Positions 3,247 through 51,155 are shown, counted from the first letter of the stretch. The stretch is DNA of 64,000 bases from Escherichia coli (GCF_011045215.1 NZ_CP049201.1), one strand, 5' to 3'. Notes: generated from the sequence alone by a model not told the origin. A program made the numbers and translations.

Positions 3247-3612
3247 TCAAAAGAGGTTATCCTGCGGAGCCAGCACAAAGCCGCCCTGATCGCCATAGGC
3301 ACTTAACACCGATTTTTGCACCGATGACTGACCGACCAGTTTCGCCAGTTCATCCATCCGAATCTGTAATAACTGCTTTACCTTGCTTTCGTTGTCGAGA
3401 ATCAGGCGCAGCATCGGGCGGAGCTGCTCCTGCATCGTGGTGGACGGGTCTATTTCTTCAGTCAGATGTGCAATCTCCTGCACCGCATTCACATACGCCA
3501 TTTCGCTGGCGATGAGTTCGTCCCATTGTTCTTCCGTTGCCAGGCGTAACATGAGCTGGCTTTTTTCGACGAGTTGTTGCCAGGCGAAATACAAATGCGG
3601 TGCATGGTTCAT
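3247..3612 (-). CDS. fliT: flagellar export chaperone / FlhDC anti-activator FliT
   Basis: 121-aa ORF immediately downstream of fliS in the fliDST operon. Confidence 0.9.
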
Positions 3613-4022
3613 CAGACTGGGTCCTGAATCAAAGAAGGGGAGAGTAACGACTCTTTCCAGGCATCGGCAATATTGCGCATTAATGCTTCCACTTCTTCGA
3701 CTGCGGAGACATCGTTGCGTAAATTGGCTTGCAGCAAGCGCCTGACCATATAGCTATAAAGAGCAATCAAGTTTTGGGTTAATTCGTCTTTGCTCTCTTC
3801 ATCAAGACTCACCCGCAGTCCGTTCTCAATGATGTTGATCGCTTTTGACAAAGAGACGCCTTTGCCTTGCTGATTGTTGTCCTGCATAAACAGGCGCGCT
3901 CTAACCAGTGCGCTCAGCACTCCATCAAATAGCATGGTGACCAGCTGCTGCTGGCTGGCGCTCATTACGGCGCTTTCGACGCCAATTTGTGCATAGGCCT
4001 GGGTGCCTTTTGCCGCGTACAT
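3612..4022 (-). CDS. fliS: flagellin-specific export chaperone FliS
   Basis: 136-aa ORF, position between fliD and fliT. Confidence 0.9.
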
Positions 4023-4046: not shown

Positions 4047-5453
4047 TTACTTGGAATTACTGTTGTTTTCGAACTGCTGCGTTAAGTAGCTGCTTGTGCT
4101 GTTTAACGAGGTCATTAAAACGTCCAGTTGGGTAAATTGTTCTTTGTAGCGCGCGACCTGCGCATCAATGCGATCGCTGGCGGCGTTGTAGTCTTTAGTT
4201 AATTTATTCAGGGTCTTACTAACGCCATCGGTAGCGGCTTTAATAATGCCCGTTGTCGAAAGCCAACTGGTCAGGTTGCTGCCGATGGTGGTCGTGATGC
4301 CGGTTTTTTTACCATCGCCAACAATCAATGCACCTACGCCGCTGGCATCTTTTTTCAGTGCAGCGGTGAGTTTGTCGGCATCCAGTTCCAGTTTGCCATC
4401 GCTGGGATCGGTCGTGATATCAATCTGCGCCAACGTTTTATAGCTGGAAGAACTGACGGTATTACTCAGCATCGATTTCAACTGCGTCTGAATCGTCCGC
4501 AGCGTGGAGTCGCCGAGCAGTGCGCCATTGCTAGAACTCTGGCTATCAGCTCCTGCATCTACGGCGGTGTATTTGGTCAGGCTGCTGAAGGTATCTATTA
4601 GCGAGTTATAGGCATTCACCCAGTCTTTAATCGCCGTTTGCGCTTTGGAGGTGTCCTGAGTGATGGTCAGCGTCTGGTTGCCCGTGGTGACATCGTTCAG
4701 GTTCAGGGTGATGTTTTCCAGCGCGTCGCTGATGGTGTTGCTGCTGTTCTCAATGGCGACGTTGTTGACCGTCAGCTGCGCATTCTGGGCGGCGACCGAG
4801 ACTTCCATGCCGTTGCTGCTGGCACTGGCGTCATAGCCCATAAAACTTTGTAGCGCATCATCACCGCTGACCGAGAGTGTCATCGCATTGTCAAGGCCGG
4901 TGTCATTTGATGTGACTGACAGACGATATTCACCGTTACCCACGTTAATGATGCTCGCACTTACGCCCGCTTTTGCGTTGTTGATGGCATCACGGATCCC
5001 GCTTAACGACGAGTTAGCCGCGCTGATATCAATGGTAATCGGATCTTTGTCGCCGCCTTGTTGAATGGTGAGTTTACTGTCGCTGGTGGCGATCGCCGTT
5101 TTCGTCTCGTCTCTGGTGGTGCGCGTGGTCAGGGTTTGCGCCTGCGCCAGATGGGTGACGCTGATGGTGTATTTCCCGGCGATAGCGTTTCCCGCAGTGG
5201 TGGCACTGAACGCGGTGGTGCTGCTGGTGGTGCTGGTGGCGGAAAAAAGATCAGCTTTAGACAATGCAGTATTGGCGGTCTGGAAAGTCGTCAGCGCGCT
5301 TTTCAGCGTACCGTAGGCGCTAAGTTTAGCGGTAAACGACGATTGCTGATTTGATATAGGGGTTAGCGTCGCTTTTTGCGCGGCGGTGAGGCTATCGAGG
5401 ATTGAACTTAAATCCAGACCTGACCCGACTCCCAGCGATGAAATACTTGCCAT
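4047..5453 (-). CDS. fliD: flagellar filament capping protein FliD
   Basis: 468-aa ORF, Ser/Thr-rich, divergent from fliC. Confidence 0.95.
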   Translation of the reverse strand: MASISSLGVGSGLDLSSILDSLTAAQKATLTPISNQQSSFTAKLSAYGTLKSALTTFQTANTALSKADLFSATSTTSSTTAFSATTAGNAIAGKYTISVTHLAQAQTLTTRTTRDETKTAIATSDSKLTIQQGGDKDPITIDISAANSSLSGIRDAINNAKAGVSASIINVGNGEYRLSVTSNDTGLDNAMTLSVSGDDALQSFMGYDASASSNGMEVSVAAQNAQLTVNNVAIENSSNTISDALENITLNLNDVTTGNQTLTITQDTSKAQTAIKDWVNAYNSLIDTFSSLTKYTAVDAGADSQSSSNGALLGDSTLRTIQTQLKSMLSNTVSSSSYKTLAQIDITTDPSDGKLELDADKLTAALKKDASGVGALIVGDGKKTGITTTIGSNLTSWLSTTGIIKAATDGVSKTLNKLTKDYNAASDRIDAQVARYKEQFTQLDVLMTSLNSTSSYLTQQFENNSNSK

Positions 5454-5615
5454 GCGATTTCCTTTTATCTTTCGACACGTAAAACGAATACCGGGGTTAT
5501 CGGCCTGAATTGCGCAAAGTTTACGTTTAATTGTTTTTTTTAATAGCGGGAATAAGGGGCAGAGAAAAGAGTATTTCGGCGACTAACAAAAAATGGCTGT
5601 TTGTGAAAAAAATTC

Positions 5616-5642
5616 TAAAGGTTGTTTTACGACAGACGATAA
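5616..5642 (+). promoter_or_regulatory. sigma-28 (FliA) class 3 promoter of fliC
   Basis: TAAAGGTT (5616-5623) - 11 nt - GACGATAA (5635-5642), ~75 nt upstream of fliC ATG; matches the TAAAGTTT-N11-GCCGATAA consensus. Confidence 0.6.
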
Positions 5643-5718
5643 CAGGGTTGACGGCGATTGAGCCGACGGGTGGAAACCCAATACGTAATCAACGACTTGC
5701 AATATAGGATAACGAATC

Positions 5719-7536
5719 ATGGCACAAGTCATTAATACCAACAGCCTCTCGCTGATCACTCAAAATAATATCAACAAGAACCAGTCTGCGCTGTCGAGTT
5801 CTATCGAGCGTCTGTCTTCTGGCTTGCGTATTAACAGCGCGAAGGATGACGCAGCGGGTCAGGCGATTGCTAACCGTTTCACCTCTAACATTAAAGGCCT
5901 GACTCAGGCTGCACGTAACGCTAACGATGGTATCTCTCTGGCGCAGACCACTGAAGGCGCACTGTCTGAGATTAACAACAACTTACAACGTGTGCGTGAG
6001 TTGACTGTACAGGCGACCACCGGTACTAACTCTGATTCTGACCTGGCTTCTATTCAGGACGAAATCAAATCCCGTTTGTCTGAAATTGACCGCGTATCCG
6101 GGCAGACCCAGTTCAACGGCGTGAACGTATTGTCTAAAGATGGCTCCCTGAAAATTCAGGTTGGCGCAAATGATGGTCAGACTATCTCTATCGACCTGAA
6201 GAAAATTGACTCTGATACTCTGGGTTTGAATGGTTTCAACGTTAATGGTTCTGGTACCATTGCAAACAAAGCGGCCACAATCAGTGACTTGACTGCTCAG
6301 AAAGCCGTTGACAACGGTAATGGTACTTATAAAGTTACAACTAGCAACGCTGCACTTACTGCATCTCAGGCATTAAGTAAGCTGAGTGATGGCGATACTG
6401 TAGATATTGCAACCTATGCTGGTGGTACAAGTTCAACAGTTAGTTATAAATACGACGCAGATGCAGGTAACTTCAGTTATAACAATACTGCAAACAAAAC
6501 AAGTGCTGCGGCTGGAACTCTGGCAGATACTCTTCTCCCGGCAGCTGGCCAGACTAAAACCGGTACTTACAAGGCTGCTACTGGTGATGTTAACTTTAAT
6601 GTTGACGCAACTGGTAATCTGACAATTGGCGGACAGCAAGCCTACCTGACTACTGATGGTAACCTTACAACAAACAACTCCGGTGGTGCGGCTACTGCAA
6701 CTCTTAAAGAGCTGTTTACTCTTGCTGGCGATGGTAAATCTCTGGGGAACGGCGGTACTGCTACCGTTACTCTGGATAATACTACGTATAATTTCAAAGC
6801 TGCTGCGGACGTTACTGATGGTGCTGGTGTCATCGCTGCTGCTGGTGTAACTTATACAGCCACTGTTTCTAAAGATGTCATTCTGGCACAACTGCAATCT
6901 GCAAGTCAGGCAGCAGCAACCGCTACCGACGGTGATACTGTCGCAACGATCAACTATAAATCTGGTGTCATGATCGGTTCCGCTACCTTTACCAATGGTA
7001 AAGGTACTGCCGATGGTATGACTTCTGGTACAACTCCAGTCGTAGCTACAGGTGCTAAAGCTGTATATGTTGATGGCAACAATGAACTGACTTCCACTGC
7101 ATCTTACGATACGACTTACTCTGTCAACGCAGATACAGGCGCAGTAAAAGTGGTATCAGGTACTGGTACTGGTAAATTTGAAGCTGTTGCTGGTGCGGAT
7201 GCTTATGTAAGCAAAGATGGCAAATTAACGACAGAAACCACCAGTGCAGGCACTGCAACCAAAGATCCTTTGGCTGCCCTGGATGCTGCTATCAGCTCCA
7301 TCGACAAATTCCGTTCCTCCCTGGGTGCTATCCAGAACCGTCTGGATTCCGCAGTCACCAACCTGAACAACACCACTACTAACCTGTCTGAAGCGCAGTC
7401 CCGTATTCAGGACGCCGACTATGCGACCGAAGTGTCCAATATGTCGAAAGCGCAGATCATCCAGCAGGCCGGTAACTCCGTGTTGGCAAAAGCTAACCAG
7501 GTACCGCAGCAGGTTCTGTCTCTGCTGCAGGGTTAA
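5719..7536 (+). CDS. fliC: flagellin (605 aa; conserved N/C termini, long central variable domain)
   Basis: MAQVINTNSLSLITQNNINKNQSALSSSIERLSSGLRINSAKDDAAGQAIANRF... and C-terminal ...QVPQQVLSLLQG. Confidence 0.95.
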   Translation: MAQVINTNSLSLITQNNINKNQSALSSSIERLSSGLRINSAKDDAAGQAIANRFTSNIKGLTQAARNANDGISLAQTTEGALSEINNNLQRVRELTVQATTGTNSDSDLASIQDEIKSRLSEIDRVSGQTQFNGVNVLSKDGSLKIQVGANDGQTISIDLKKIDSDTLGLNGFNVNGSGTIANKAATISDLTAQKAVDNGNGTYKVTTSNAALTASQALSKLSDGDTVDIATYAGGTSSTVSYKYDADAGNFSYNNTANKTSAAAGTLADTLLPAAGQTKTGTYKAATGDVNFNVDATGNLTIGGQQAYLTTDGNLTTNNSGGAATATLKELFTLAGDGKSLGNGGTATVTLDNTTYNFKAAADVTDGAGVIAAAGVTYTATVSKDVILAQLQSASQAAATATDGDTVATINYKSGVMIGSATFTNGKGTADGMTSGTTPVVATGAKAVYVDGNNELTSTASYDTTYSVNADTGAVKVVSGTGTGKFEAVAGADAYVSKDGKLTTETTSAGTATKDPLAALDAAISSIDKFRSSLGAIQNRLDSAVTNLNNTTTNLSEAQSRIQDADYATEVSNMSKAQIIQQAGNSVLAKANQVPQQVLSLLQG

Positions 7537-7647
7537 TCGTTGTAACCTGATTAACTGAGACTGACGGCAACGCCAAATTGCCTGATGCGTTGCGCTTATC
7601 AGGCCTACAAGTTGAATTGCAATTTATTGAATTCGCACATTTTTGTA

Positions 7648-7678
<31 letters not shown>

Positions 7679-7710
7679 AACATGAATGGTAATTTGTCAG
7701 CAACGTGCTT

Positions 7711-7734
7711 CCCCGCCACCGGCGGGGTTTTTTC
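7711..7734 (+). terminator. rho-independent terminator after fliC, within a REP-containing intergenic region
   Basis: ccccgcc-acc-ggcgggg hairpin followed by T-run; preceded by REP-like palindromes (gcctgatgcg...cttatcaggcctac; tgtaggccggataaggcg...gcatccggca). Confidence 0.6.
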
Positions 7735-7855
7735 TGCCTGGAATTTACCGGTAACCCCCAAATAACCCCTCATTTCACCCACTAATCGTCCGATTAAAAA
7801 CCCTGCAGAAACGGATAATCATGCCGATAACTCATATAACGCAGGGCTGTTTATC

Positions 7856-8575
7856 GTGAATTCACTCTATACCGCTGAAGGTGTAATGGATAAACACTCG
7901 CTGTGGCAGCGTTATGTCCCGCTGGTGCGTCACGAAGCATTGCGCCTGCAGGTTCGACTGCCCGCGAGCGTGGAACTTGACGATCTGCTACAGGCGGGCG
8001 GCATTGGGTTACTTAATGCCGTCGAACGCTATGACGCCCTACAAGGAACGGCATTTACAACTTACGCAGTGCAGCGTATCCGTGGCGCTATGCTGGATGA
8101 ACTTCGCAGCCGTGACTGGGTGCCGCGCAGCGTGCGACGCAACGCGCGTGAAGTGGCACAGGCAATAGGGCAACTGGAGCAGGAACTTGGCCGCAACGCC
8201 ACGGAAACTGAGGTAGCGGAACGTTTAGGGATCGATATTGCCGATTATCGCCAAATGTTGCTCGACACCAATAACAGCCAGCTCTTCTCCTACGATGAGT
8301 GGCGCGAAGAGCACGGCGATAGCATCGAACTGGTTACTGATGATCATCAGCGAGAAAACCCGCTACAACAACTGCTGGACAGTAATCTGCGCCAGCGGGT
8401 GATGGAAGCTATCGAAACGTTGCCGGAGCGCGAAAAACTGGTATTAACCCTCTATTACCAGGAAGAGCTGAATCTCAAAGAGATTGGTGCAGTGCTGGAG
8501 GTCGGGGAATCGCGGGTCAGTCAGTTACACAGCCAGGCTATTAAACGGTTACGCACTAAACTGGGTAAGTTATAA
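7856..8575 (+). CDS. fliA: RNA polymerase sigma-28 factor FliA
   Basis: 239-aa ORF with GTG start; sigma-70 family regions; upstream of fliZ. Confidence 0.95.
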   Translation: MNSLYTAEGVMDKHSLWQRYVPLVRHEALRLQVRLPASVELDDLLQAGGIGLLNAVERYDALQGTAFTTYAVQRIRGAMLDELRSRDWVPRSVRRNAREVAQAIGQLEQELGRNATETEVAERLGIDIADYRQMLLDTNNSQLFSYDEWREEHGDSIELVTDDHQRENPLQQLLDSNLRQRVMEAIETLPEREKLVLTLYYQEELNLKEIGAVLEVGESRVSQLHSQAIKRLRTKLGKL

Positions 8576-17527: not shown

Positions 17528-17603
<76 letters not shown>

Positions 17604-17656
17604 GTTTAAAAGGCATCGGCGTCAGCGGATGTCTGGCTGAAAGGCCTGAAGAATTT

Positions 17657-17730
17657 GGCGCGTTAACAAAGCGGTTATGTAGCGGATTGCAAATCCGTCT
17701 AGTCCGGTTCGACTCCGGAACGCGCCTCCA
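17657..17730 (+). tRNA. cysT: tRNA-Cys (anticodon GCA)
   Basis: GGCGCGTTAACAAAGCGGTTATGTAGCGGATTGCAAATCCGTCTAGTCCGGTTCGACTCCGGAACGCGCCTCCA. Confidence 0.95.
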
Positions 17731-17742
17731 CTTTCTTCCCGA

Positions 17743-17829
17743 GCCCGGATGGTGGAATCGGTAGACACAAGGGATTTAAAATCCCTCGGCGTTCGCGCTG
17801 TGCGGGTTCAAGTCCCGCTCCGGGTACCA
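17743..17829 (+). tRNA. leuZ: tRNA-Leu (anticodon TAA)
   Basis: GCCCGGATGGTGGAATCGGTAGACACAAGGGATTTAAAATCCC...GGGTTCAAGTCCCGCTCCGGGTACCA; long variable arm typical of tRNA-Leu; its 3' 55 nt are duplicated at 39473. Confidence 0.95.
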
Positions 17830-22539: not shown

Positions 22540-23724
22540 ATGAGTGAAACTCGTTTTCATGGTGCCCGTGTTACGGAAAATACCGACCTGGTAACAGCGA
22601 TTAACGATGTTGATTCCAGCGTTATCGGTATCGTGGCAACGGCGGATGATGCGGACGCGAAGCTGTTCCCGCTGAACAAGCCCACACTGCTGACCCGCGT
22701 CAATGACGTGCTGGGAAAATGCGGGACAACGGGGACGCTTTATCGTGCGCTTAAGGCCATCGCAGACCAGGTGAGCACAAAGGTGATCGTCGTTCGCGTG
22801 GCTGAACACAAAGAAGAAGACGGAAAAACGCAGGATCAACTGGTTATCGGTGGTTCTGAATCTGACGGCAGCTATACGGGGATGTATGCGCTGCTTGTTG
22901 CAGAGCAGGATGAAAGCATCGGATACCGTCCGCGTATTCTGGCCGCGCCGGAGCTGGACACGGAGGCGGTAACAAAATCCCTGTGCGTGATTGCGGGTAA
23001 ACTGCGCGCGTTTGTGTATGCCTCATGTCACGGCTGTAACACGATGGCTGAGGCGATTACCTACCGCCAGAAATTCAACGAACGTGAGGTGATGCTCTTA
23101 TGGCCGGACTTCATCGCCTACAACCCGAAAAGTGGCAAAAACGAAACGTTCCCCGCGCCTGCCTATGCGTGCGGCCTTCGTGCGTACATTGACCATGAGC
23201 AGGGATGGCACAAATCACTGTCCAACGTTCCGGTTAAAAATGTGCTGGGGATGTCGAGGCATGTGTTCTGGTCGTTGCAGGCCGAAGACAGCGATGCCAA
23301 CAGCCTCAACAACAAAGAAATCACGACCATTATTCGTCGCAACGGGTTCCGCTTCTGGGGCAACCGCACACCGGAAACGAACGCCTACATCTTTGAGGTG
23401 TATACCCGAACCGCACAGGTGCTGGCTGATTCAATTGCGGAAGCGCAGTTTGAAACCATCGACAGTCCATTAACACCCGCGAACGTGAAGGATGTTATCA
23501 GTGCCATCAGGGCAAAACTGGATTCGCTGGTTACTGCCGGGAAACTGATAGGCGCGGAGTGCTGGTATGACGTGGTGGATAACAGCACCACGGATTTACG
23601 TCAGGGACGTGTGCGTATTCGCTACAAATATACGCCCGTTCCGCCACTGGAAGACATGGAGCTTTACCAGACGTTTACTGATGAATACTTTGAACCCGCA
23701 TTTGCGGTGCTGGGAGGTGCCTGA
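22540..23724 (+). CDS. contractile tail sheath protein (P2 FI-like)
   Basis: 394 aa; shares FPLNKP, KLRAF, WPDF, EQGWHKSLSNV, GFRFWGNRT, YTRTAQV, YTPVPPLE with P2 FI as recalled. Confidence 0.9.
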   Translation: MSETRFHGARVTENTDLVTAINDVDSSVIGIVATADDADAKLFPLNKPTLLTRVNDVLGKCGTTGTLYRALKAIADQVSTKVIVVRVAEHKEEDGKTQDQLVIGGSESDGSYTGMYALLVAEQDESIGYRPRILAAPELDTEAVTKSLCVIAGKLRAFVYASCHGCNTMAEAITYRQKFNEREVMLLWPDFIAYNPKSGKNETFPAPAYACGLRAYIDHEQGWHKSLSNVPVKNVLGMSRHVFWSLQAEDSDANSLNNKEITTIIRRNGFRFWGNRTPETNAYIFEVYTRTAQVLADSIAEAQFETIDSPLTPANVKDVISAIRAKLDSLVTAGKLIGAECWYDVVDNSTTDLRQGRVRIRYKYTPVPPLEDMELYQTFTDEYFEPAFAVLGGA

Positions 23725-24236
23725 TGGCTGTGCCAAAACATCTTCGCTTTTTTACGCTGTTTGTGGATGGTGAAAACGAAGTGGGTAAGGTGACGTCCGT
23801 CACTCTGCCTAAGCTGACGCGCAAAACCGACAGCTACCGGGGTGGCGGCATGATGGGTGCGGTAAGTATTGATCTCGGTCTGGACGACTCCGCGCTTGAT
23901 GCGAGCTTTGTCATGGGGGGCGCAGTTCGTGAGCTGTTCCTTAAGTATGGCGGCACGATTGACGGCACGCTGCTGCGTTTTGCGGGTGAATACTACACCG
24001 ATGCAGAAAGCGACCTGTATGAAGTCGAAATGCGCGGACGTGTGACGGAAATTGATATGGGGGAAGCCAAACAGGGCGAAGCCACATCACACACTTACGC
24101 CATTAAAAACACCTACTACAAGCTGAGTGTTAACGATCGCCCGTTGTGGGAGATTGACCTGCTGAACTTCATTTACCGGAAGGACGGCAAGGACATTGTG
24201 CCCGATCGCATCCGTTCCGCGCTTGGGCTTGGCTGA
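23724..24236 (+). CDS. tail tube protein (P2 FII-like)
   Basis: 170 aa; SVTLPKLTRK...YRGGGM...LGLDD pattern as in P2 FII; directly follows FI. Confidence 0.85.
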   Translation: MAVPKHLRFFTLFVDGENEVGKVTSVTLPKLTRKTDSYRGGGMMGAVSIDLGLDDSALDASFVMGGAVRELFLKYGGTIDGTLLRFAGEYYTDAESDLYEVEMRGRVTEIDMGEAKQGEATSHTYAIKNTYYKLSVNDRPLWEIDLLNFIYRKDGKDIVPDRIRSALGLG

Positions 24237-24290
24237 TAAGTAATATGCAGGCGGCGCAGTGCGTCGCCTCTGACTGAAAGGAGTTTCCTG

Positions 24291-24656
24291 ATGAAAGAGA
24301 CGAAAAACATCGATACCGAAAACACGGTAGTTACTGACACTGTGAAAGAAACCAGTGAGCGTGGCGTAAAACTTACCCAACCAATTGAGCGAGGCGGCGA
24401 AAAAATCACGTATGTGGAGATCACCGGGGCTATTGAGCAGGCTGGATCTCTGCGAGATTTGTCGCTGTCTGATGTGCTGAATCTGAAAGCGGAATCCATG
24501 TTTACGCTGCTGTCACGCGTGACATCACCGCGACTGGATGAAGTGACGATCAAAAAAATGGCATCCCGTGACTTTATTCAGTTATGTGTGGTTGCCGTAA
24601 ATTTTTTGAGCGGTGCGGACTCTGGCGGGAAGAACGAACAGGCGACGGAAGCCTGA
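24291..24656 (+). CDS. tail assembly chaperone (P2 gpE-like)
   Basis: 121-aa ORF between tube and tape-measure genes; contains the slippery site for E' frameshifting. Confidence 0.75.
   Translation: MKETKNIDTENTVVTDTVKETSERGVKLTQPIERGGEKITYVEITGAIEQAGSLRDLSLSDVLNLKAESMFTLLSRVTSPRLDEVTIKKMASRDFIQLCVVAVNFLSGADSGGKNEQATEA
24602..24608 (+). other. predicted -1 programmed ribosomal frameshift site (TTTTTTG) producing E+E' fusion
   Basis: T6G heptamer inside gpE-like ORF; the -1 frame (ORF 24584..24820) extends to the start of the tape-measure gene, as in P2 E/E'. Confidence 0.6.
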
Positions 24657-24770
24657 TCACGGTTGTGTGCTTTGAGCACATAGAAGACTTTGTGGCGGAT
24701 ATTGCCGCCATTTTTAACTGGTCGCCCGCCGAAATCTTCATGATGACGCCCGGCGAAGTGGTTAGCTGGC

Positions 24771-27614
24771 GTGAGCGGGCGGCACTTCGCAGCGGGAATG
24801 CAGACAATGAAGACTCTTGATATCCGGGTCGCTTTCAGCGCCGTTGACAGGCTGACCCGGCCTGCCGAAAACGCCCGCCGCCTGATGGGGCAGTTTGGTG
24901 ACTCCATCCAGCGAACGCAGGGGGCGATCAAAAATCTCGAGCGTCAGGCGCGTTCATTTGAGCGCGCCCGTGACGCTGTCAGTAAAGCGGATGCTGGCAT
25001 ATTGAAAGCACGACGCCAGCTTAACGCCCTTAATCAGTTACAACGCACGGGTACAGTGCTCAGCGAAAAACAACAAAAGCTGATGCAGCAGTTAAGCACC
25101 CGGCTTGAACGCCTGAATGAATCGCGCACACGTGAAATTCAGAAAATGCGGGAGCTTGGCGGAGAGCTGAAACGCCACGGCATTTCCCTGACAGGCAGCG
25201 ATAACACCATCCAGCAGGCCATCAGACGCACCGAACAGTACAACAACCAGCTTGAACGCGAACGGCAGGCGCTTGCGCGTGTAACGCGGGCGCGTGAGCG
25301 GTATTCGCGCGCGCAGGAAACCGCGGGAAAACTGAAAACAGGTGGTGCGCTGGCAATTGGTGCGGCAGCGGCTGGCGGCTATGCTGCCGGGCGTTTTTTG
25401 CAGCCTGCGATCGGGTTCGGCAAAGAGATGTCCCGCGTTCAGGCACTGACGCGAATCGACAAAAACAGCCCGCAGTTTAAGGCGCTGCGTGAGCAGGCGT
25501 TAAAACTTGGCTCTGAAACACAGTTTACTGCGAGTGATGCCGCCAGTGGGCAGAGCTTTCTGGCAATGGCTGGTTTTACTCCGCAGTCCATTCAGGCCGC
25601 ATTGCCCGGTGTTCTTAATATGGCGCTGGCAGGTGGCGTCGAACTCGGCGAGACGGCTGATATAGGCTCCAATATCCTCACACAGTTCAACCTGACAGCC
25701 GATCAAATGGGCCGTGTTGGCGATACGCTGACAGCAGCATTCACCCGGACCAATACTGATTTACGCGCGCTGGGCGAAACCATGAAGTATACCGGTCCGG
25801 TTGCCGCAAAACTTGGTATCAGTCTTGAAGAAGCGGCAGCCATGGCCGGGATGCTTGCCAATAATGGTCTTCGTGGAAGCGATGCTGGTACGGCCATTCG
25901 CGCAAGTCTGTCCCGCCTTGCATCACCGCCAAAAGCTGCGGCTGATGCGCTGAAAGAGCTGGGGGTGTCAGTTGCTGACGCCAGAGGCAAAATGCGCCCG
26001 ATGGAGGATGTGCAGCTTGATCTCTACAAGGCGACACAAAAATACGCACAGGTGGACCAGGTTTCCTTCTTCAAGGACATCGCCGGAGAAGAGGCGTTCG
26101 TTGGTTTGCAGACGCTTGTTGCGGCGTCTGGTTCAGGAGAGCTGCAAAAACTGACCAGAGAATTGCAGGGGGCAAGGGGAGAGGCCGATCGCGTTGCAAA
26201 AGTAATGGCCGATAATCTTGATGGGGACCTGAAAAATCTCGACAGCGCATGGGAAGGTCTTCGTATTCGCATCAGTGATCTGGTTGACGGTCCGCTGCGT
26301 TCTGTCACGCAGTGGCTCACGCGGGGGCTTGAAAAAATCACCTCGCTGGCGCAGGCCCATCCGGTACTGACGCGCCAGCTACTGATAGCAGGCGGTGCGT
26401 TGCTGGCAATGACTGTAACGATTGGCTCGTTGTCGCTGGTTATTGGGGGGCTTTACGGGAAGCTGGCTACCTTGCGTCTTGGTTTTGACATTCTTACCCG
26501 GTCAATGAATGTCGTCAGGGTGTTGCCTGCGCTGTGGGGAATGGTGACGGGTTCCGTTTCTTTACTGGGAGGCGCTATCGGGGCGCTGTTCAGTCCGGTT
26601 GGTCTTATCGTGGCTGCGCTTGCCGGAGCTGCCGTTCTTATCTGGAAATACTGGGATCCCATCAGGGCATTTTTTGCAGGGGTGTTCAGCGGGATTATGG
26701 AAAGGCTGACCCCGTTGCGCGAAACCTTTGAACGGTTTGGTCCTGTTTTTGACGCAATCGGAAGCGGGATCAGCCAGGTGTTTAACTGGTTTAAATTGCT
26801 GCTGTCACCGATGGAGTCCAGCAAGGAAACGCTGGATAAATGCACCAGTGCTGGCGAGGTATTCGGTAACGTTCTTGGTGGCGCGTTACAGCTTGTTCTG
26901 ACGCCTGCAAAAATGCTGCTGGATACGCTGGCGTGGATACTTGAAAAACTCGGTGTGCTTCCGGATGAGGCGGAAAGGGCGCGTAAGAAAATCGAAGACG
27001 CACAGCGTGCGGCCATTCTTCAGGACAAGGTTGCCTTGCTTCAGGGGGATCTGGCGAAAATCAATCCGCCGAAGCCTGTGGAAAATGGCAATGGCACCGG
27101 AGGTGATAAACCCAAAGACAACAAACCGCTCACAGACAGCAATACCGGGACGCTACGCAGACTCAGCAAAATTGCTGATAACACAGGTAAGCTGGTTGAT
27201 GAGACGAAAAAACGCATTGGCCCCGGCGATATTGTCTTTAAGAACCTGCCCCGCGCACTTGCTGTTCGTGGGGAGTGGCAGGAGCGGAAGATTGCGCAGG
27301 TCAGTAAGCCTGCCCCCGCAATTAATATCACACCTGTGGTCCCGGCTCCGCTGCCTCCGACGCTGGTCCCTGTTGTTGCGGCCAGCTCCCGCCCGGTGGC
27401 GGAGTCCATACGATCTCCAGTGGCATCAGTTCCTGCAACTTCCCGTAACCGGGAGCCTGTTGCCTCCGGATTTGGCGGTGAAATTCATGTTCATCTGCAT
27501 AACGTTGTTACGCAGAATCCCCGCGAACTGGCGAAACTGGTCGGCGAAATGGTCAGTGCAGAAATGGAACGGCGCGCCCGTGCCAGGCGTGGCAGTTTTT
27601 ACGATAAAGATTGA
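24771..27614 (+). CDS. tail tape-measure protein (P2 gpT-like)
   Basis: 947-aa ORF, coiled-coil N-terminus, Gly/Ala-rich hydrophobic central segments; position after E/E'. Confidence 0.9.
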   Translation: MSGRHFAAGMQTMKTLDIRVAFSAVDRLTRPAENARRLMGQFGDSIQRTQGAIKNLERQARSFERARDAVSKADAGILKARRQLNALNQLQRTGTVLSEKQQKLMQQLSTRLERLNESRTREIQKMRELGGELKRHGISLTGSDNTIQQAIRRTEQYNNQLERERQALARVTRARERYSRAQETAGKLKTGGALAIGAAAAGGYAAGRFLQPAIGFGKEMSRVQALTRIDKNSPQFKALREQALKLGSETQFTASDAASGQSFLAMAGFTPQSIQAALPGVLNMALAGGVELGETADIGSNILTQFNLTADQMGRVGDTLTAAFTRTNTDLRALGETMKYTGPVAAKLGISLEEAAAMAGMLANNGLRGSDAGTAIRASLSRLASPPKAAADALKELGVSVADARGKMRPMEDVQLDLYKATQKYAQVDQVSFFKDIAGEEAFVGLQTLVAASGSGELQKLTRELQGARGEADRVAKVMADNLDGDLKNLDSAWEGLRIRISDLVDGPLRSVTQWLTRGLEKITSLAQAHPVLTRQLLIAGGALLAMTVTIGSLSLVIGGLYGKLATLRLGFDILTRSMNVVRVLPALWGMVTGSVSLLGGAIGALFSPVGLIVAALAGAAVLIWKYWDPIRAFFAGVFSGIMERLTPLRETFERFGPVFDAIGSGISQVFNWFKLLLSPMESSKETLDKCTSAGEVFGNVLGGALQLVLTPAKMLLDTLAWILEKLGVLPDEAERARKKIEDAQRAAILQDKVALLQGDLAKINPPKPVENGNGTGGDKPKDNKPLTDSNTGTLRRLSKIADNTGKLVDETKKRIGPGDIVFKNLPRALAVRGEWQERKIAQVSKPAPAINITPVVPAPLPPTLVPVVAASSRPVAESIRSPVASVPATSRNREPVASGFGGEIHVHLHNVVTQNPRELAKLVGEMVSAEMERRARARRGSFYDKD

Positions 27615-28211: not shown

Positions 28212-29450
28212 TTATAAAGAATTGCTACTTTCTAATTCTGGGTTTCTGGATCTATTTTTACAACCTAAATCCGAGTGGTAATTCGGTATATCGTTTGTCA
28301 AATCTTGTTTGATAGCATTAATTAAGATCATTATGTCGAATTTATGCATATCGTCGCCCCCTTCAGACCTTAGATGTTCGGATGTGGTGAGTTGAGTCGC
28401 TAATTTGCTGTTTGGCCCCCACACAATATTGTTTTCGAATTTTCCTTCATGCATTCTGTTATTATATATACAGTATTGTCTAATGTTTAATCCACTGGCT
28501 AAATGTACAATAGCAGTATCTACAGTTATAACAAAATCAGCATGGCGAACCAATGCAAATGAACATCCGGCATCAGAAAATGGAGATAGAGACACATTAT
28601 CCAATCCATTGTGATTAATCTGTTCTCCCATATTAAAAACTATTGTGTGATATCCCTTAAGGTTATTAAGGTAAGCTAGTACTTTGTTTATCTGTTCATC
28701 AGATAATGTTCTGCTATTCTGAGAACCATAAGGGTTAAATATAACTAATTTTTTGTTTTTCTTCCTGAATTCATTTGCAACAATATTTGCTGGTTCATAT
28801 ATTTTGTTGTCAAAATTAAGCGCTGCAGCATAATTATTATTTTTTATCTTTAGTAAAGATAAAACTTTTTTCATTCTTTCAGATGTGTGAATGGAACGAT
28901 TATCGATTATATTTGTATCAAAAATAGTTACGGCAGGATGATTAAAACAGATAGAGTGTTTAGGTCTAAGTAAATGTAGTGTTTGCAATCTGGTTATCGC
29001 TGTGTTATCAAAATTTGAGAAGTCAACAACAAGATCTACATTCAGTTTTTTTATCTTTGCTTTTAGTTCGTTAAATTTATTTTTCTCGTAAGATATAAAG
29101 GCATCCACGCCAACAATATCAGTAAAGAGGAATGATACTCTTGAAGGTGCTATCACATATACCACCATACCGGATTTTTGAAGTTGTTTAATAAACCCTG
29201 AGGTAACGATGCCGTCACCAATGGCTTGCATGTGCATGAAAATGCACACTGTTTTATAACTATCCGGCTGTAATGATGTTTTCCTTCTGTATCGCATTTT
29301 TAGAAATGCCAGTCTGGCCTTCGTCTTTATCTTTTTTGTTTTAATATTTCGCTCTCTGTTAAGCTGTTTTAATGATGAAATAACATTCATAATGGTACCC
29401 TGAAAATCCAAATCACACATGTCATCCGAAATGAGCAGGATACTATACAA
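28212..29450 (-). CDS. glycosyltransferase family 9 (LPS heptosyltransferase-like) cargo gene
   Basis: 412-aa ORF, very AT-rich; N-terminal ...MQAIGDGIVTSGFIKQL and C-terminal ...FVITVDTAIVHLASGLN resemble the GT9 motifs of WaaC/WaaF-type enzymes; start may be internal. Confidence 0.6.
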   Translation of the reverse strand: MYSILLISDDMCDLDFQGTIMNVISSLKQLNRERNIKTKKIKTKARLAFLKMRYRRKTSLQPDSYKTVCIFMHMQAIGDGIVTSGFIKQLQKSGMVVYVIAPSRVSFLFTDIVGVDAFISYEKNKFNELKAKIKKLNVDLVVDFSNFDNTAITRLQTLHLLRPKHSICFNHPAVTIFDTNIIDNRSIHTSERMKKVLSLLKIKNNNYAAALNFDNKIYEPANIVANEFRKKNKKLVIFNPYGSQNSRTLSDEQINKVLAYLNNLKGYHTIVFNMGEQINHNGLDNVSLSPFSDAGCSFALVRHADFVITVDTAIVHLASGLNIRQYCIYNNRMHEGKFENNIVWGPNSKLATQLTTSEHLRSEGGDDMHKFDIMILINAIKQDLTNDIPNYHSDLGCKNRSRNPELESSNSL

Positions 29451-29484: not shown

Positions 29485-30084
29485 TTATGCTTGTTTACTC
29501 CTTGATTCCACTGGGGAAGCAGGCCACTCAATATCCGGTGCTCTTGATGTATCAACACGGTTCAGCAGCACTCGATACTTCTTCCATGCCACCAGTAACG
29601 ATGTTTCTTCCTCTGTTGCAATATTCAAATCTACGGCATCTTGAAGTGGCGAAATATGCTCACTGGCTACCTGCATGAGGCTGTTTTTTGTTTCTTCCGC
29701 CTCCCGTATCCGGAACACTTTTTCTGCTTCTGCATCTTTCACCCACGTTGTGCCGTTCCACTTCTGAAACTCCCCTTCCGGGGATAACCAGGTGACATTT
29801 TCCGGTAATGGACCGAGTTCAGAAATAAATAACGCGCCCCCTGATGCCACGTCATAAACCGTTTTACCACGATGATCTTCAACGAGATGCCAGGACGTCT
29901 TATCACTGTTGAAAATAGCCACGAAGCCAGCTGGAATATCTGGCGGAGAAATATCAGTACTATTTGCAGGTAGACCTGTATGAGGTGGAATGTATGCATC
30001 ACCTTCACCAATAAATTCATTGGTTCCGACCAGCAGATTATAAATTTTTATGGTTCGTGGTTGTTCACTCATTCTGAATGCCAT
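29485..30084 (-). CDS. tail fibre assembly chaperone (Tfa / P2 G-like)
   Basis: 199-aa ORF immediately downstream of the tail-fibre fragment; Tfa-like C-terminus (...[22 protein letters not shown]). Confidence 0.8.
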
Positions 30085-31259
30085 TATGCAAGCCTCACAA
30101 TATAGTTAAATGCGATGTTTTTTACGGTGTTTTCCGCGTTGCCATAAGCGGCAATGGTAATGGTGTGTGTGTGCGAACCAATAGCGAGCGTATGTGTATG
30201 CGCACCTATTGCTACTGTGTGAGTATGAGCTCCTGCGCTTAATACGCGATTACTTGCTGTCTTGCTTGTGTTAGTTGCATGCATTCCACCACCGGTACCG
30301 GGAGTTTCTGCGTATGCTGAAGTATTGTTGTAAGCAAAGTTGTGTGTATGTGCTCCGGTGTTATTTGTGGATTTAGTTCCGTAATCAAACGACGATGTGG
30401 TTTTCGTCCCCAAATCCGTACTGGATGCGCTGGCGCTGTGGGTGTGCGATTTAATGCCGTCCTGTTCCTGAGACAATACGGCTCGACCACTGGCTGGTTT
30501 GCCCTTAATCGTCCAGCCACGCATATCAGGGATCACGCCTGACGGATAAGCGGCTGCAAGTTTCGGGTATGCAGATTTGTCAAAAGTCTGCCCCTGCATC
30601 AGGGCATAACCAGACGGAACGGTATCTGATGGCCACGGGATTGGTGCGCCAGGCGGATAAAACTGCTCTGATGGCGTATAGAGTGAATAAACTGTACCGT
30701 CCGTTAACCCTTCCGGCTTATTAGCAGAATATGCTGGTGACGTATGAATCGTCACGCTGGCATTACTGGTATAATCCCATTGAATATTTACACCAGTCGC
30801 ATAATTTCCGATTGCAACGTAAATATCGTAAGTATCACCAGATGTATTGACCCAGGCAAAATTTGTAAACCCTGTCGATGTGCGCTGCCATAAAGCACCA
30901 GTAATCCCCTTCGGATTACCATTACCTGCACGCAAAACAAGTTCAGATATACCTGCCTGTTGAGGTGAACCGACGTTATATCCAGCCCCACCAATCAACG
31001 TAATTGAAACAACAGAACTCGCCTGCGGCATGGTTACCGTTGCTAATTTGAACCAACCAGCACCACCGCTAAATGACATAGTTGTTGAGTTAAGCGTACC
31101 AATATCTTTCGGTGTCAGTGTTATATCCGCTGAAAGCGCCTTACCATTCACCTTACGGGCAGAAGGTACGGTCTGGCAAGAGCCGCCCGGCAAACGTCCT
31201 GGCATCAGTCTGCGCTTTACTTTAAGCGCAATGTATTGCTCGGTTGCTACATCCCGCAC
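30084..31259 (-). pseudogene. tail fibre protein, C-terminal portion only (N-terminus deleted)
   Basis: 391-aa ORF with HTHT/His-x-His repeats ([24 protein letters not shown]) typical of fibre tips; reading frame runs into the portal fragment junction at ~31236-31259. Confidence 0.7.
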
Positions 31260-34932: not shown

Positions 34933-35044
34933 CGTTTACGGGATTCTGAAATCCCGTTTTTGCCTGTTTTGTGTGCGCTTCATATATCGCGGCGCGTTTT
35001 TTGCTCATTTACGGGATTTGTGAATCCCGTTTCTGTCTGTTTTT
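34933..35044. repeat. two ~36-bp direct repeats, each with an internal dyad (acgggatt..aatcccgt), upstream of the parM-like gene
   Basis: tttacgggattctgaaatcccgtttttgcctgtttt (34933..34968) and tttacgggatttgtgaatcccgtttctgtctgtttt (35008..35044); candidate parC-like centromere/operator, or a remnant of a replication origin near the end of gene A. Confidence 0.5.
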
Positions 35045-36533
35045 TGTTTCCACTGGTCAGGCCACCCCGCAGCAGGTCTGCTTTGCGGCGGGCACGTTCA
35101 GTGGTTTCACTGATTCTCTGTGCGTGCTCTGCGTCGCGGATGGCGCGCAGCATGTCAGAAAGCACGGTAACGGGGGTTTTCATGGTGTTCTGGTCCTGCT
35201 GAAGTGTGGATGCCAGACGTGCGGCGGCTTCGAGGTCTGATGCCCCCAGCTGTTCCAGATAGCTGGCGACCGGGTTATGGCGGATCTCCGTGCTGCTTAC
35301 GCCGTGATTACGGCTCAGGCGCTGCCAGAGCTGCGTGATTCGGCTGTCCGGGCGGGTATCCGGTTTGCGTACAATTTCAAATCCCTGCGGTGCAATGATG
35401 CTGCCGTCAACGTACAGGCTGCCGCCCCGTAACAGGTGCTGCATCTGCTGTTCACCGATATGCATGCCGAGAGATTCGGCAGATTCCCGCCATTCTTTAG
35501 CGAGTAATTCGTGGTTATCAGGCAAAGGCCGCTGCTGTTTGCGGCTCTGTGTCCAGCTCTGCATTTCATCACTGCTGTTTTTTGCCTGTTTGTCACGCAG
35601 CGAACGCATCAGCGCCCGGCGTTCGTGCCGTTTCAGTGAGCGCACCCATTCATCCACATCAACGCCGTCAGGAAGCTGCGGCCACGGTGCTGGCCGTTCT
35701 TCCGGCTGTTCTGTCCCGTTGTTGTCCGTTTCCTGTACACGGGGACAGTTATTGCCACGAGTCCAAGGGGCGGCAGGGCCGCTCTGAAGGTCAAAACCAT
35801 TTTCGCGGGAGCTGTCTTCCGCTTCCGGTTTGCGTCTTACCAGCTTCCAGTTATCCGGATGCGTGCATACGCGGGAAGACTCCCCGATGAGCGGCGACCA
35901 GATCCCGTAAATCTGTACACTCTGCTCACCGTAATCGTTCAGTTCATCTGCGAGGTCGTAGGCGGTGCGAATCAGGTAGTCTTTGCGTGGAACAAGCACG
36001 CCACCCTGTTTTTCAATGTAGGTGGCAAAACACCCGGCATCAGCGGCAGCGAGTACCGCATCCATTGCGTCATCCTTCAGCCGTTGCGGGCCTTCCGGGT
36101 TGCGTGCCATCTGGCTGGCAAGGCGGCGCAGTTCACGCCACACCTGACGGGAGGGGATACCAAAGAACTGGAACTGGCGGACCCGGTGAAGGCGCGCCCA
36201 GCCGATGGCGCGTTCCACGCTCTCGGCCATTGATTTTCCGGTTTCGTGGTCAACGCGTGGCTTGCCCGTTTTCGGGTCGATGCCATCCACGGCGCGGCTG
36301 TCCAGGTTCTTTCCGATGTAGGTGGCGATGTAGCTGGTTGGCGTGCCTTTTGAGCCGTCGACGTACTCCGCCTTAAAACGCGGAGTTATGTCATCGCCCA
36401 GCTCGTGGCGGTCTTCCTGAATGGCAATATCGCAGACGTGGGACACGATGGTTTCAATCTCGTCCGGATGTGCAAAGACCATCATATGCCAGTGCACAGT
36501 GCCGTCATGGTGAGGCTCCAGCGGTGTATTCAC
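34980..36533 (-). pseudogene. replication initiation endonuclease gpA-like, N-terminally truncated
   Basis: 517-aa ORF begins within the region matching P2 A (LEPHHDGTVHWHMMVF vs P2 VEPHHDGTPHWHMMVF as recalled); the N-terminal part of a full-length A protein plus cox/B equivalents are missing. Confidence 0.7.
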
Positions 36534-39722: not shown

Positions 39723-40388
39723 ATGAAAACGGGACCGTTAAACGAAAGTGAGTTGGAATGGCTGGACGATATTCTGACCAAATACAACACTGACCACGCC
39801 ATCCTTGATGTGGCGGAGCTGGACGGTTTATTGACGGCAGTGTTGAGTTCTCCGCAAGAGATTGAACCGGCACAGTGGCTGGTTGCCGTGTGGGGTGGGG
39901 CTGACTATGTGCCGCGCTGGGCGTCAGAGAAAGAGATGACGCGCTTTATGAACCTGGCTTTTCAACATATGGCCGATACCGCAGAGCGTCTGAACGAATT
40001 CCCGGAGCAGTTTGAGCCGTTATTCGGCTTGCGAGAAGTTGATGGCAGCGAGCTGACGATTGTTGAGGAGTGGTGCTTTGGCTATATGCGGGGCGTGGCA
40101 CTTTCTGACTGGTCAACATTGCCCGATTCGTTAAAACCAGCGCTGGAGGCGATAGCGCTGCACGGTACTGAGGAAAACTTCGAGCGGGTAGAGAAGATGT
40201 CGCCAGAAGCGTTTGAAGAGAGCGTAGATGCCATTCGACTGGCGGCGCTTGATTTACATGCATACTGGATGGCGCATCCGCAGGAAAAAGCTGTTCAGCA
40301 ACCGATCAAAGCAGAAGAGAAACCGGGGCGTAACGATCCTTGTCCGTGCGGCAGTGGTAAGAAATTTAAGCAGTGCTGCCTGCATTAA
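39723..40388 (+). CDS. yecA: UPF0149 family protein with SEC-C metal-binding motif
   Basis: 221 aa; C-terminal [13 protein letters not shown]; synteny with tyrP. Confidence 0.9.

Positions 40389-47802: not shown

Positions 47803-51155
<3,353 letters not shown>

What the first reader, a model, noticed from the sequence alone, without database searches (positions are those of the whole stretch)
5719..7536. Long (605 aa) flagellin with extended central variable domain
N- and C-terminal D0/D1 regions are canonical, but the Thr/Ala/Gly-rich central region is long, indicating an H-antigen type different from the 498-aa K-12 flagellin I recall. Useful for serotype inference and a marker that this is not a K-12 background.
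Basis: partly seen in the sequence, partly recalled or inferred. Interest (0 to 1): 0.2.

Follow-up and report, generated by a model that had tools for sequence, protein, structure and literature searches.

The report
E. coli H51-type flagellin gene
This is an intact, ordinary E. coli flagellin gene (fliC) of the already-known H51 antigen type, so it helps serotyping and shows the strain is not K-12, but it is not a new biological feature.

Summary
Window 5719..7536 (+) is one 605-aa ORF with Flagellin_N, FliC and Flagellin_C domains. It sits in the canonical E. coli locus amyA-fliT-fliS-fliD | fliC-fliA-fliZ-tcyJ. The ends are 92-98% identical to K-12 and H7 flagellins. The central 340 residues are 47% Thr+Ala+Gly and hold all of the extra length over K-12 FliC, which I checked at 498 aa.

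The allele is the H51 genotype. It is 99.8-99.9% nt identical to fliC in four genomes that published studies typed as H51 with SerotypeFinder. 35 of 5,426 complete E. coli genomes carry it, and no other allele matches more than 9% of its central region. The exact protein is already in public databases.

The gene has a sigma-28 promoter, a Shine-Dalgarno site, a FliX-type 3'UTR and a terminator. fliA, flhDC and the mot/che genes in the window are intact.

The outer region is homologous to the solved EHEC H7 flagellin (42% identity) and keeps the D4 dimer motif (N315/N319). An H7-like outer-domain sheath is therefore a reasonable inference, but it is untested.

The allele lies in a ~3-kb low-divergence segment shared across different backgrounds. 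Its nearest central-region relatives are in Kluyvera and Pantoea.

Verdict: already known, low interest.

The parts
5719..7536 (+). fliC coding sequence, 605 aa plus stop; H51 genotype
   Evidence: ORF; Pfam Flagellin_N/FliC/Flagellin_C; 99.8-99.9% nt identity to fliC of genomes typed H51
5616..5642 (+). sigma-28 (FliA) class-3 promoter of fliC: TAAAGGTT-N11-GACGATAA
   Evidence: 2 mismatches to TAAAGTTT-N11-GCCGATAA. The window has 5 such sites against 0.76 expected, and 0 of 100 shuffles reach 5. Sequence read.
5706..5709 (+). Shine-Dalgarno AGGA, 9 nt before the ATG
   Evidence: read directly from the sequence
5719..6243 (+). N-terminal conserved part (aa 1-175; D0/D1 helices and beta-hairpin)
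   Evidence: Flagellin_N aa 5-140; 92-95% identical to K-12 and H7; model helices at 2-38, 44-101 and 106-129
6244..7263 (+). central variable (outer-domain, H-antigen) region, aa 176-515
   Evidence: 47% T+A+G. Identity is 21.6% to K-12, 41.6% to H7 and 54.8% to H45. In 5,426 genomes no match beyond 9% coverage outside the 35 carriers. Model pLDDT is mostly 85-97 for aa 181-510, with dips near 361-380 and 411-420.
6658..6678 (+). GNLTTNN motif (aa 314-320); N315 and N319 align with H7 N319 and N323 of the D4 dimer interface
   Evidence: alignments; position; role of the H7 residues (PMC8931119). Among 98 homologues G314, L316 and T318 are invariant, and N319 is kept in 92 of 98.
6808..6808 (+). 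polymorphic site: G here (Asp364) versus A (Asn364) in the commoner H51 allele
   Evidence: The Asp364 protein (P0002) was seen on 155 contigs and the Asn364 protein (P0001, UniProt Q9S0T2) on at least 1000.
7264..7533 (+). C-terminal conserved part (aa 516-605; D1/D0 helices)
   Evidence: Flagellin_C aa 519-603; 94-99% identical to K-12, H7 and H45; model helices at 517-566 and 573-604
7540..7733 (+). fliC 3'UTR, corresponding to the K-12 FliX sRNA
   Evidence: 96.9% identical over 194 nt to the annotated K-12 fliX
7711..7727 (+). intrinsic terminator stem (7 G-C pairs) followed by a T-run
5497..5523 (-). divergent sigma-28 promoter of fliD-fliS-fliT: TAAACTTT-N11-GCCGATAA
   Evidence: 1 mismatch to the consensus
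4047..5453 (-). fliD, filament cap protein (468 aa)
   Evidence: Pfam FliD_N and FliD_C; annotation of the syntenic loci
3612..4022 (-). fliS, flagellin export chaperone (136 aa)
   Evidence: Pfam FliS; annotation
7856..8575 (+). fliA, sigma-28 factor that transcribes fliC (239 aa)
   Evidence: Pfam Sigma70 r2/r3/r4; annotation
5254..8244 (.). low-divergence segment shared with H51 genomes of a different background (3' end of fliD, fliC, 5' part of fliA)
   Evidence: 2 mismatches in 2,991 nt against 221 in 10,545 nt of flank (2.10%); Poisson P = 1.2e-24

Best explanation
The feature is the chromosomal fliC gene of an E. coli strain. It encodes the flagellar filament subunit of the known H51 antigenic type.

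Shown here: the gene is intact and sits in the standard fliDST | fliC | fliAZ locus. It carries a sigma-28 promoter, a ribosome-binding site, a FliX-type 3'UTR and a terminator. Its ends are near-identical to other E. coli flagellins, and its centre is a discrete allele class.

Inferred from established flagellar biology: FlhDC, which is intact in the window, turns on fliA. FliA-RNA polymerase transcribes fliC from the class-3 promoter. FliS chaperones the C-terminal part of the protein. The flagellar type III export apparatus secretes it, and it polymerises under the FliD cap. The D0/D1 helices form the filament core and carry the TLR5-recognised surface. Residues ~176-515 form the surface-exposed outer domains, which are the H antigen.

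Further inference, less certain: the outer region is homologous over its whole length to EHEC H7 flagellin, which has three outer domains D2-D4, and it keeps the D4 dimer-interface asparagines. H51 filaments therefore probably carry an H7-like outer-domain sheath rather than the canonical K-12 or Salmonella surface.

The allele reached this background by homologous recombination of a ~3-kb segment.
For: - ORF and domains.
- Synteny with annotated E. coli loci.
- H51 label: alleles 99.8-99.9% nt identical occur in genomes typed H51 by SerotypeFinder (PMC10740950; PMC11969786).
- Discreteness: the central region matches only 35 of 5,426 genomes at >=99.8%, and everything else covers at most 9% at ~78%.
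- Prior record: the exact protein is already in public collections, in a 94-member cluster of which 40 members were read, all named members E. coli (one Escherichia sp.).
- Regulatory signals: sigma-28 sites 5 observed vs 0.76 expected, correctly placed for fliC, fliD, motA and tar. Terminator. 3'UTR 96.9% identical to K-12 FliX.
- Regulators: flhD, flhC, motAB and the che genes have full-length ORFs.
- Structure by sequence: the best PDB match is 7SN4, the EHEC H7 filament, aligned 1-605 to 1-585 with E 2.5e-192.
- Structure by fold: the AF2 model is confident through most of the outer region. The top Foldseek hits are the sheath-forming flagellins 7SN4, 9N59, 7SQD and 7SN7.
- Motif: GNLTTNN is conserved, and H7 N319/N323 mutants lose the sheath and motility (PMC8931119).
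- Mosaic divergence.
Against: - The H51 call is indirect. I could not compare with the H51 type-strain reference sequence or run SerotypeFinder, and all published labels used here are in-silico calls, not agglutination results.
- Expression and motility cannot be read from sequence, and the other flagellar gene clusters lie outside the window.
- For the sheath inference, central identity to H7 is only 41.6% with 37 window residues opposite gaps.
- Global TM-scores to 7SN4 are 0.43-0.46 with large rmsd. This is expected for a hinged multi-domain monomer, but it is not proof of the same quaternary packing.
- The other sheath interfaces were not examined.
Confidence: 0.93

Rival explanations
1. 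The gene is a new or different H type, not H51. On this reading the long centre defines an antigen that falls outside the 53 recognised H types or belongs to another of them.
For: I had no direct access to the H-type reference set. The window allele has one amino-acid difference (Asp364) from the commonest form.
Against: It differs by 2-3 nt in 1,818 from alleles in four genomes typed H51 with SerotypeFinder. The nearest other labelled E. coli types are far away in the central region: H45 54.8%, H7 41.6%, H48 21.6%. One conservative Asp/Asn change, with both forms common in databases, does not make a new type.
Confidence: 0.02
2. The gene is intact but phenotypically silent. The strain would be non-motile (H-) because of defects elsewhere, or would express a flagellin from a second locus, so the genotype would not predict the serological H antigen.
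For: Only 64 kb is visible. The flg, flhBAE and fliE-R clusters and any flk/fll/flm-type loci lie outside the window. Non-motile E. coli with an intact fliC are common (established knowledge).
Against: Everything visible is intact: promoter, Shine-Dalgarno site, ORF, fliA, fliZ, fliDST, flhDC, motAB, cheAW, tar, tap and cheRBY. There is no second flagellin gene in the window. H51 is not among the types I recall being encoded at non-fliC loci (from memory, not tested).
Confidence: 0.12
3. The outer domains serve only as an antigenic or adhesive decoration on a canonical filament. There would be no outer-domain sheath and no effect on swimming.
For: Outer domains are dispensable for motility in Salmonella and many other bacteria (PMC8931119 introduction). 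Central identity to H7 is only ~42%. The model's global superposition on 7SN4 is poor.
Against: The alignment to H7 is full-length and includes all three outer domains. The five best structural matches are all sheath-forming filaments. The D4 interface motif with both asparagines is conserved, whereas K-12 H48 lacks it.
Confidence: 0.3
4. The H51 centre is a recent import from another genus (Kluyvera or Pantoea) into E. coli.
For: The closest central-region relatives are Kluyvera cryocrescens (86.8% aa) and Pantoea (79.3% aa), well ahead of any other E. coli type (<=55.5%). Both lie in genuinely non-E. coli gene contexts.
Against: Nucleotide identity of the central region to Kluyvera (80.8%) is no higher than that of neighbouring housekeeping genes: fliA 81.4%, tcyJ 80.4%, fliD 76.1%. 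Any transfer would therefore be ancient, and an old allelic lineage retained in several genera fits equally well. GC content of the central region is the same in both (45.8 vs 45.6%).
Confidence: 0.05

Closest known systems
fliC-H51 of E. coli ST155 strains (APEC E19025 CP126931, E18005 CP126946, NCTC11129 LR134222, JS01 CP148986)
   Same: Same length (1,818 nt, 605 aa), same locus, 99.8-99.9% nt identity. The intergenic regions on both sides are identical to those of E19025.
   Different: 2 nt differences: G1090A gives Asp364 here against Asn364 there, and C1761T is synonymous. The flanking genes differ by 1-3%, so the chromosomal background is different.
EHEC O157:H7 flagellin (PDB 7SN4; sheath-forming, outer domains D2-D4)
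   Same: End-to-end alignment with E 2.5e-192. N-terminal part 95.4% and C-terminal part 97.8% identical. The D4 motif GNLTTNN is conserved. It is the best Foldseek match.
   Different: 585 vs 605 aa. The central region is only 41.6% identical, with 37 window residues opposite gaps. It is a different H antigen. Sheath formation by H51 has not been tested.
E. coli H45 flagellin (O126:H45 strain MIN10)
   Same: The closest serotype-labelled E. coli type found apart from H51: central region 54.8% identical, ends 95-99%.
   Different: 568 aa. At the DNA level only a 93-nt stretch of the central region is detectably similar (~78%).
E. coli K-12 H48 flagellin (FliC b1923, 498 aa; PDB 8CXM)
   Same: Same locus, same regulation signals, ends 92-94% identical, 3'UTR 96.9% identical.
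   Different: 107 aa shorter. The central region is 21.6% identical and lacks the GNLTTNN motif.
Kluyvera cryocrescens flagellin (P0016, 605 aa) and Pantoea flagellin (P0017, 605 aa)
   Same: Same length. Central region 86.8% and 79.3% aa identical, closer than any other E. coli H type in the set.
   Different: They sit in other genera with different neighbouring genes. Nucleotide identity is only 80.8% and 72.7% in the centre.

Membership tests
FliC/FljB-type bacterial flagellin | N-terminal flagellin helical region (Pfam PF00669) | tested here: met
   aa 5-140, E 3.9e-46, 157 bits against a cut-off of 26.6
FliC/FljB-type bacterial flagellin | C-terminal flagellin helical region (Pfam PF00700) | tested here: met
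   aa 519-603, E 5.3e-31, 107 bits against a cut-off of 23
FliC/FljB-type bacterial flagellin | Location at the E. coli fliC locus, divergent from fliDST and upstream of fliAZ | tested here: met
   Colinear with the annotated loci of E19025, NCTC11129, MG1655 and LSU61
FliC/FljB-type bacterial flagellin | Class-3 sigma-28 promoter | tested here: met
   TAAAGGTT-N11-GACGATAA at 5616-5642; sites are enriched in the window, 5 against 0.76 expected. This is a consensus match only; transcription was not measured.
FliC/FljB-type bacterial flagellin | Secretion and polymerisation into a filament | not testable with these tools
   Needs motility assays or microscopy
E. coli H51 flagellar antigen type (fliC-H51 genotype) | Near-identity over the full length to an allele that a reference-based typer calls H51 | tested here: met
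   99.8-99.9% over 1,818 nt to fliC of four genomes typed H51 with SerotypeFinder. The test is indirect because the typer itself was not run.
E. coli H51 flagellar antigen type (fliC-H51 genotype) | Central region distinct from all other H types | tested here: met
   Outside the 35 carriers, no genome among 5,426 matches more than 9% of the central 1,011 nt
E. coli H51 flagellar antigen type (fliC-H51 genotype) | Direct match to the H51 type-strain fliC sequence | not tested
   The reference set was not available and Wang et al. 2003 is not held. The accession I remembered turned out to be H45.
E. coli H51 flagellar antigen type (fliC-H51 genotype) | Agglutination with H51 antiserum | not testable with these tools
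   Serology is needed
Outer-domain-sheath (ODS) flagellins (EHEC H7, EPEC H6, Achromobacter) | Outer region homologous to the three-domain D2-D3-D4 arrangement | tested here: met
   Full-length phmmer alignment to 7SN4. Central region 41.6% identical. Foldseek top five are 7SN4 (two chains), 9N59, 7SQD and 7SN7, with E 2.5e-47 to 5.6e-30. Caveat: global TM is only 0.33-0.48.
Outer-domain-sheath (ODS) flagellins (EHEC H7, EPEC H6, Achromobacter) | Conserved D4 dimer-interface motif with two asparagines (H7 N319, N323) | tested here: met
   N315 and N319 in GNLTTNN, aa 314-320
Outer-domain-sheath (ODS) flagellins (EHEC H7, EPEC H6, Achromobacter) | Outer domains dimerise or tetramerise into a sheath in the assembled filament | not testable with these tools
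   Needs cryo-EM of H51 filaments
E. coli K-12 (H48) flagellin | 498-aa protein with the H48 central region | tested here: not met
   605 vs 498 aa; central region 21.6% identical, with 109 residues opposite gaps

The most novel reading that the evidence does not exclude
The H51 outer-domain type may be an old allelic lineage shared by Escherichia, Kluyvera and Pantoea. It would either have been retained since before these genera split or have been exchanged long ago. The evidence is that its central region diverges from Kluyvera's no more than the neighbouring housekeeping genes do, although other E. coli H types are far more different. The lineage may also build an H7-like outer-domain sheath with its own packing. 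That would make H-antigen classes trans-genus structural classes rather than E. coli-specific variants.
Probability: 0.4. Interest if true: 0.3.

Novelty: already known. Interest (0 to 1): 0.07.

Why it matters
The value is practical and modest. The window can be labelled as carrying fliC-H51, an uncommon type present in 0.65% of complete E. coli genomes. The published carriers found here include ST155 (phylogroup B1) poultry pathogens of serotypes O78:H51 and O177:H51. The gene also shows that the strain is not K-12.

The mosaic pattern is a reminder that the H type travels by recombination and should not be used alone to infer lineage. The predicted H7-like sheath and the cross-genus relatives are small extensions of published work, not new biology.

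Tried and rejected
- Wang et al. 2003 (PMC154406), the source of the H-type reference sequences, is not held. Supplementary Table S7 of the JS01 paper is not held either. The direct reference comparison was therefore replaced by labelled genomes.
- I recalled AY250023 as the H51 accession. One search shows it is H45, so I cite no accession for H51.
- After I first read P0001 as the window's exact protein. One search showed the ids were in the other order: P0002 is the window's Asp364 protein and P0001 is the Asn364 form. All statements use the corrected mapping.
- blastp against K-12 returned only the N-terminal HSP, so I used a MAFFT global alignment instead.
- I looked for internal duplication as the cause of the extra length. 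Only short, low-identity direct repeats turned up, and no tandem or inverted repeats. Rejected.
- I looked for the window's own genome among the complete genomes and the exact-protein loci. None matches the flanks better than ~99.2%, so the strain is unidentified.
- A recent inter-genus transfer was considered and rejected on nucleotide identity.
- The MS-H paper lists an H51 reference strain but gives no sequence data.
- The marginal Rfam hit ES036 at 7601-7642(-), 38.1 against 37.6 bits, was not pursued.

Full report
**1. Observation**

It carries the three Pfam families expected of an enterobacterial flagellin:
- Flagellin_N at aa 5-140, E 3.9e-46
- FliC at aa 338-509, E 1e-15
- Flagellin_C at aa 519-603, E 5.3e-31

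The neighbours are fliS (3612..4022, -), fliD (4047..5453, -), fliA (7856..8575, +) and fliZ, identified by Pfam. The region is colinear with annotated E. coli loci: amyA-fliT-fliS-fliD | fliC-fliA-fliZ-tcyJ-dcyD-tcyL-tcyN-sdiA.

The central part (aa 176-515) is 17.9% Thr, 17.1% Ala and 12.4% Gly. The protein has no Cys, Trp or His. A four-way alignment places all of the extra length in the centre:

| Comparator | N-terminal 175 aa | Central region (aa 176-515) | C-terminal 90 aa | Window residues opposite gaps |
|---|---|---|---|---|
| K-12 H48 (498 aa) | 92.0% | 21.6% | 94.4% | 109 |
| O157:H7 (585 aa) | 95.4% | 41.6% | 97.8% | 37 |
| O126:H45 (568 aa) | 95.4% | 54.8% | 98.9% | 39 |

**2. 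Which H type**

Megablast against 5,426 complete E. coli genomes finds the conserved ends in 4,519 of them. Only 35 genomes (0.65%) match the full gene, at 98.7-99.9% identity. The central 1,011 nt alone matches those same 35 at >=99.8%. Everything else covers at most 9% of it at ~78%. The allele class is therefore discrete.

Two of the 35 records are named O78:H51. Their paper states that E19025 (CP126931), E18005 (CP126946) and NCTC11129 (LR134222) were typed H51 with SerotypeFinder 2.0.1 and EcoSP; all three are ST155 (PMC10740950). A separate paper typed JS01 (CP148986, ST155) as O177:H51 with SerotypeFinder (PMC11969786). All four carry alleles 99.8-99.9% identical to the window's.

I could not run the typer or obtain the type-strain sequence. 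The accession I remembered belongs to H45.

**3. Allelic detail**

The window differs from the common H51 allele at two positions:
- G1090A at window 6808, giving Asp364 here against Asn364 in the common form
- C1761T at window 7479, synonymous

Both proteins are already in public collections, in one 94-member cluster; of the 40 members read, all named ones are E. coli apart from one partial sequence labelled Escherichia sp. The Asn364 form (P0001, named after UniProt Q9S0T2) was seen on at least 1000 contigs. The window's Asp364 form (P0002) was seen on 155. I first read these two ids the wrong way round, and one search corrected it. None of the complete RefSeq genomes has the window's exact DNA allele. 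The closest locus found (L009) differs by one nucleotide.

**4. Regulation and expression signals**

- A sigma-28 consensus site, TAAAGGTT-N11-GACGATAA, lies at 5616-5642, about 75 nt upstream of the ATG.
- A divergent site for fliD lies at 5523-5497.
- Further sites precede motA (53232) and tar (57818).
- The window holds five such sites against 0.76 expected, and none of 100 shuffles reaches five.
- An AGGA Shine-Dalgarno sequence sits 9 nt before the start codon.
- Positions 7540-7733, downstream of the stop, are 96.9% identical to the K-12 FliX 3'UTR sRNA. This stretch ends in a 7-bp all-GC stem with a T-run at 7711-7727.
- flhD, flhC, motA, motB, cheA, cheW, tar, tap, cheR, cheB and cheY are present as full-length ORFs.
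- There is no second flagellin gene in the window.

Nothing visible argues against expression. Expression itself cannot be shown from sequence.

**5. How it most likely works**

Established flagellar biology gives the pathway; this is knowledge of the system, not a test made here.
- FlhDC activates class-2 genes, including fliA.
- FliA directs transcription of fliC.
- FliS binds the C-terminal part of the protein.
- The flagellar type III apparatus exports the subunit.
- FliD caps the growing filament.
- D0/D1 form the filament core.
- The central domains face outward and constitute the H antigen.

For the outer part there is specific evidence:
- The best solved relative is 7SN4, the EHEC O157:H7 filament, aligned 1-605 to 1-585 with E 2.5e-192.
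- An AlphaFold2 model built on a 98-sequence alignment has mean pLDDT 80. Ten-residue block means are mostly 85-97 over residues ~181-510, with dips to 62-80 near residues 361-380 and 411-420.
- The top Foldseek hits are 7SN4 (E 2.5e-47), 9N59 (Azotobacter), 7SQD (Achromobacter) and 7SN7 (EPEC H6). The paper behind 7SN4, 7SQD and 7SN7 describes those three as having three outer domains D2-D4 that dimerise or tetramerise into an outer-domain sheath (PMC8931119); 9N59 was not checked.
- In H7 the sheath depends on a D4 interface. N319F/N323F and N319R/N323R mutants lose the surface order and most of their motility.
- The window protein has the same GNLTTNN stretch at aa 314-320, with N315 and N319 aligned to those residues.
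- K-12 H48 lacks the motif.

I therefore consider an H7-like sheath likely, at about 0.6-0.7. The support has limits. Central identity is 42%. Global TM is 0.43-0.46, as expected for a hinged monomer model. Only one interface was checked.

**6. Population context**

Against the O78:H51 genome, the window has 2 mismatches in 5254-8244 (2,991 nt) but 221 in the remaining 10,545 nt (2.10%); Poisson P = 1.2e-24. Divergence climbs to 2-3% in fliT, amyA, fliZ and tcyJ. Other H51 carriers differ from the window by 0.75-1.9% in the flanks. The best matches to the first 25 kb of the window are genomes with other fliC alleles. This is the familiar picture of fliC moving between backgrounds by homologous recombination. 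The H type therefore says little about lineage.

**7. Relatives outside E. coli**

In a search of 5.8 billion proteins, the nearest sequences outside the allele's own cluster are 605-aa flagellins from Kluyvera cryocrescens and Pantoea:

| Relative | Overall identity | Central-region identity |
|---|---|---|
| Kluyvera cryocrescens (P0016) | 91% | 86.8% |
| Pantoea (P0017) | 86% | 79.3% |
| Best other E. coli types | ~73% | <=55.5% |

Both sit in gene contexts unlike E. coli's. At the DNA level the centre is 80.8% identical to Kluyvera's. That is no more than fliA (81.4%) or tcyJ (80.4%), and only a little above fliD (76.1%). The pattern fits an old allelic lineage present in several genera, or an ancient exchange. 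It does not fit a recent import.

**8. Comparison with the known, and verdict**

The gene is a member of the FliC/FljB flagellin family by every testable criterion. It is a member of the fliC-H51 genotype by near-identity to alleles typed as H51. It is not K-12 H48. It resembles sheath-forming flagellins in the features I could test.

Nothing here is new. The exact protein is in public databases, the allele is in 35 complete genomes, and papers already describe H51 strains. Interest is low.

Noticed in passing
window ~18000-39400: A degraded P2-family prophage lies between the tRNA Gly-Cys-Leu cluster (17528-17826) and yecA (39723-40388). It keeps tail sheath, tube and tape-measure genes (22540-27614) and an integrase (38365-39366). 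Its tail-fibre ORF (30084-31259, 391 aa) and replication-endonuclease ORF (34980-36533, 517 aa against 940 aa) are truncated. An intact relative spans ~41 kb for 25 kb of window. K-12 has leuZ directly next to yecA.
   Followed up: partly
window 28212-29450 (-): A 412-aa ORF inside the prophage remnant corresponds to a 'glycosyltransferase family 9 protein' in the intact relative. This is an unusual cargo gene for a P2-type phage, sitting next to the tail-fibre genes.
   Followed up: no
window 29543-29741 (-): Rfam IS009 hit (187.7 bits, gathering score 117) within the tail-fibre-assembly gene of the prophage remnant.
   Followed up: no
window 6244-7263; loci L014 (Kluyvera), L015-L017 (Pantoea): The closest relatives of the H51 variable region are in Kluyvera cryocrescens (86.8% aa) and Pantoea (79.3% aa), not in other E. 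coli H types (<=55.5%). Nucleotide identity to Kluyvera (80.8%) equals that of neighbouring housekeeping genes, which suggests an old allelic lineage shared across genera.
   Followed up: partly
window ~7541-7710 (fliC-fliA intergenic); loci L008, L010, L005: Some genomes that encode the identical FliC protein lack ~155-170 nt here. That stretch is most of the region homologous to the FliX 3'UTR sRNA. Another H51 genome (L005) has an IS110-family transposase inserted between fliC and fliA.
   Followed up: partly
window 7601-7642 (-): Marginal Rfam hit to ES036 (CssrF) sRNA, 38.1 bits against a gathering score of 37.6. It lies antisense within the fliC 3'UTR.
   Followed up: no
window 5254-8244: A low-divergence segment: 2 mismatches in 2,991 nt against an O78:H51 genome whose flanks differ by 2.1%. 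This indicates that fliC with parts of fliD and fliA was shared by recombination.
   Followed up: yes
window 1-25000: No complete E. coli genome matches the first 25 kb better than 98.4% over 96% of its length. The best matches carry other fliC alleles, so the source strain's lineage is not represented among the 5,426 complete genomes, at least for this region.
   Followed up: partly
window 57751-57828 (-): Rfam C0465 sRNA hit (109.8 bits) in the cheW-tar intergenic region. It overlaps the perfect sigma-28 consensus site of tar at 57818-57844.
   Followed up: no
window 50000-50026 (-): A weak sigma-28-like site (3 mismatches) on the minus strand inside the otsA coding region. It is probably a chance match.
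   Followed up: no
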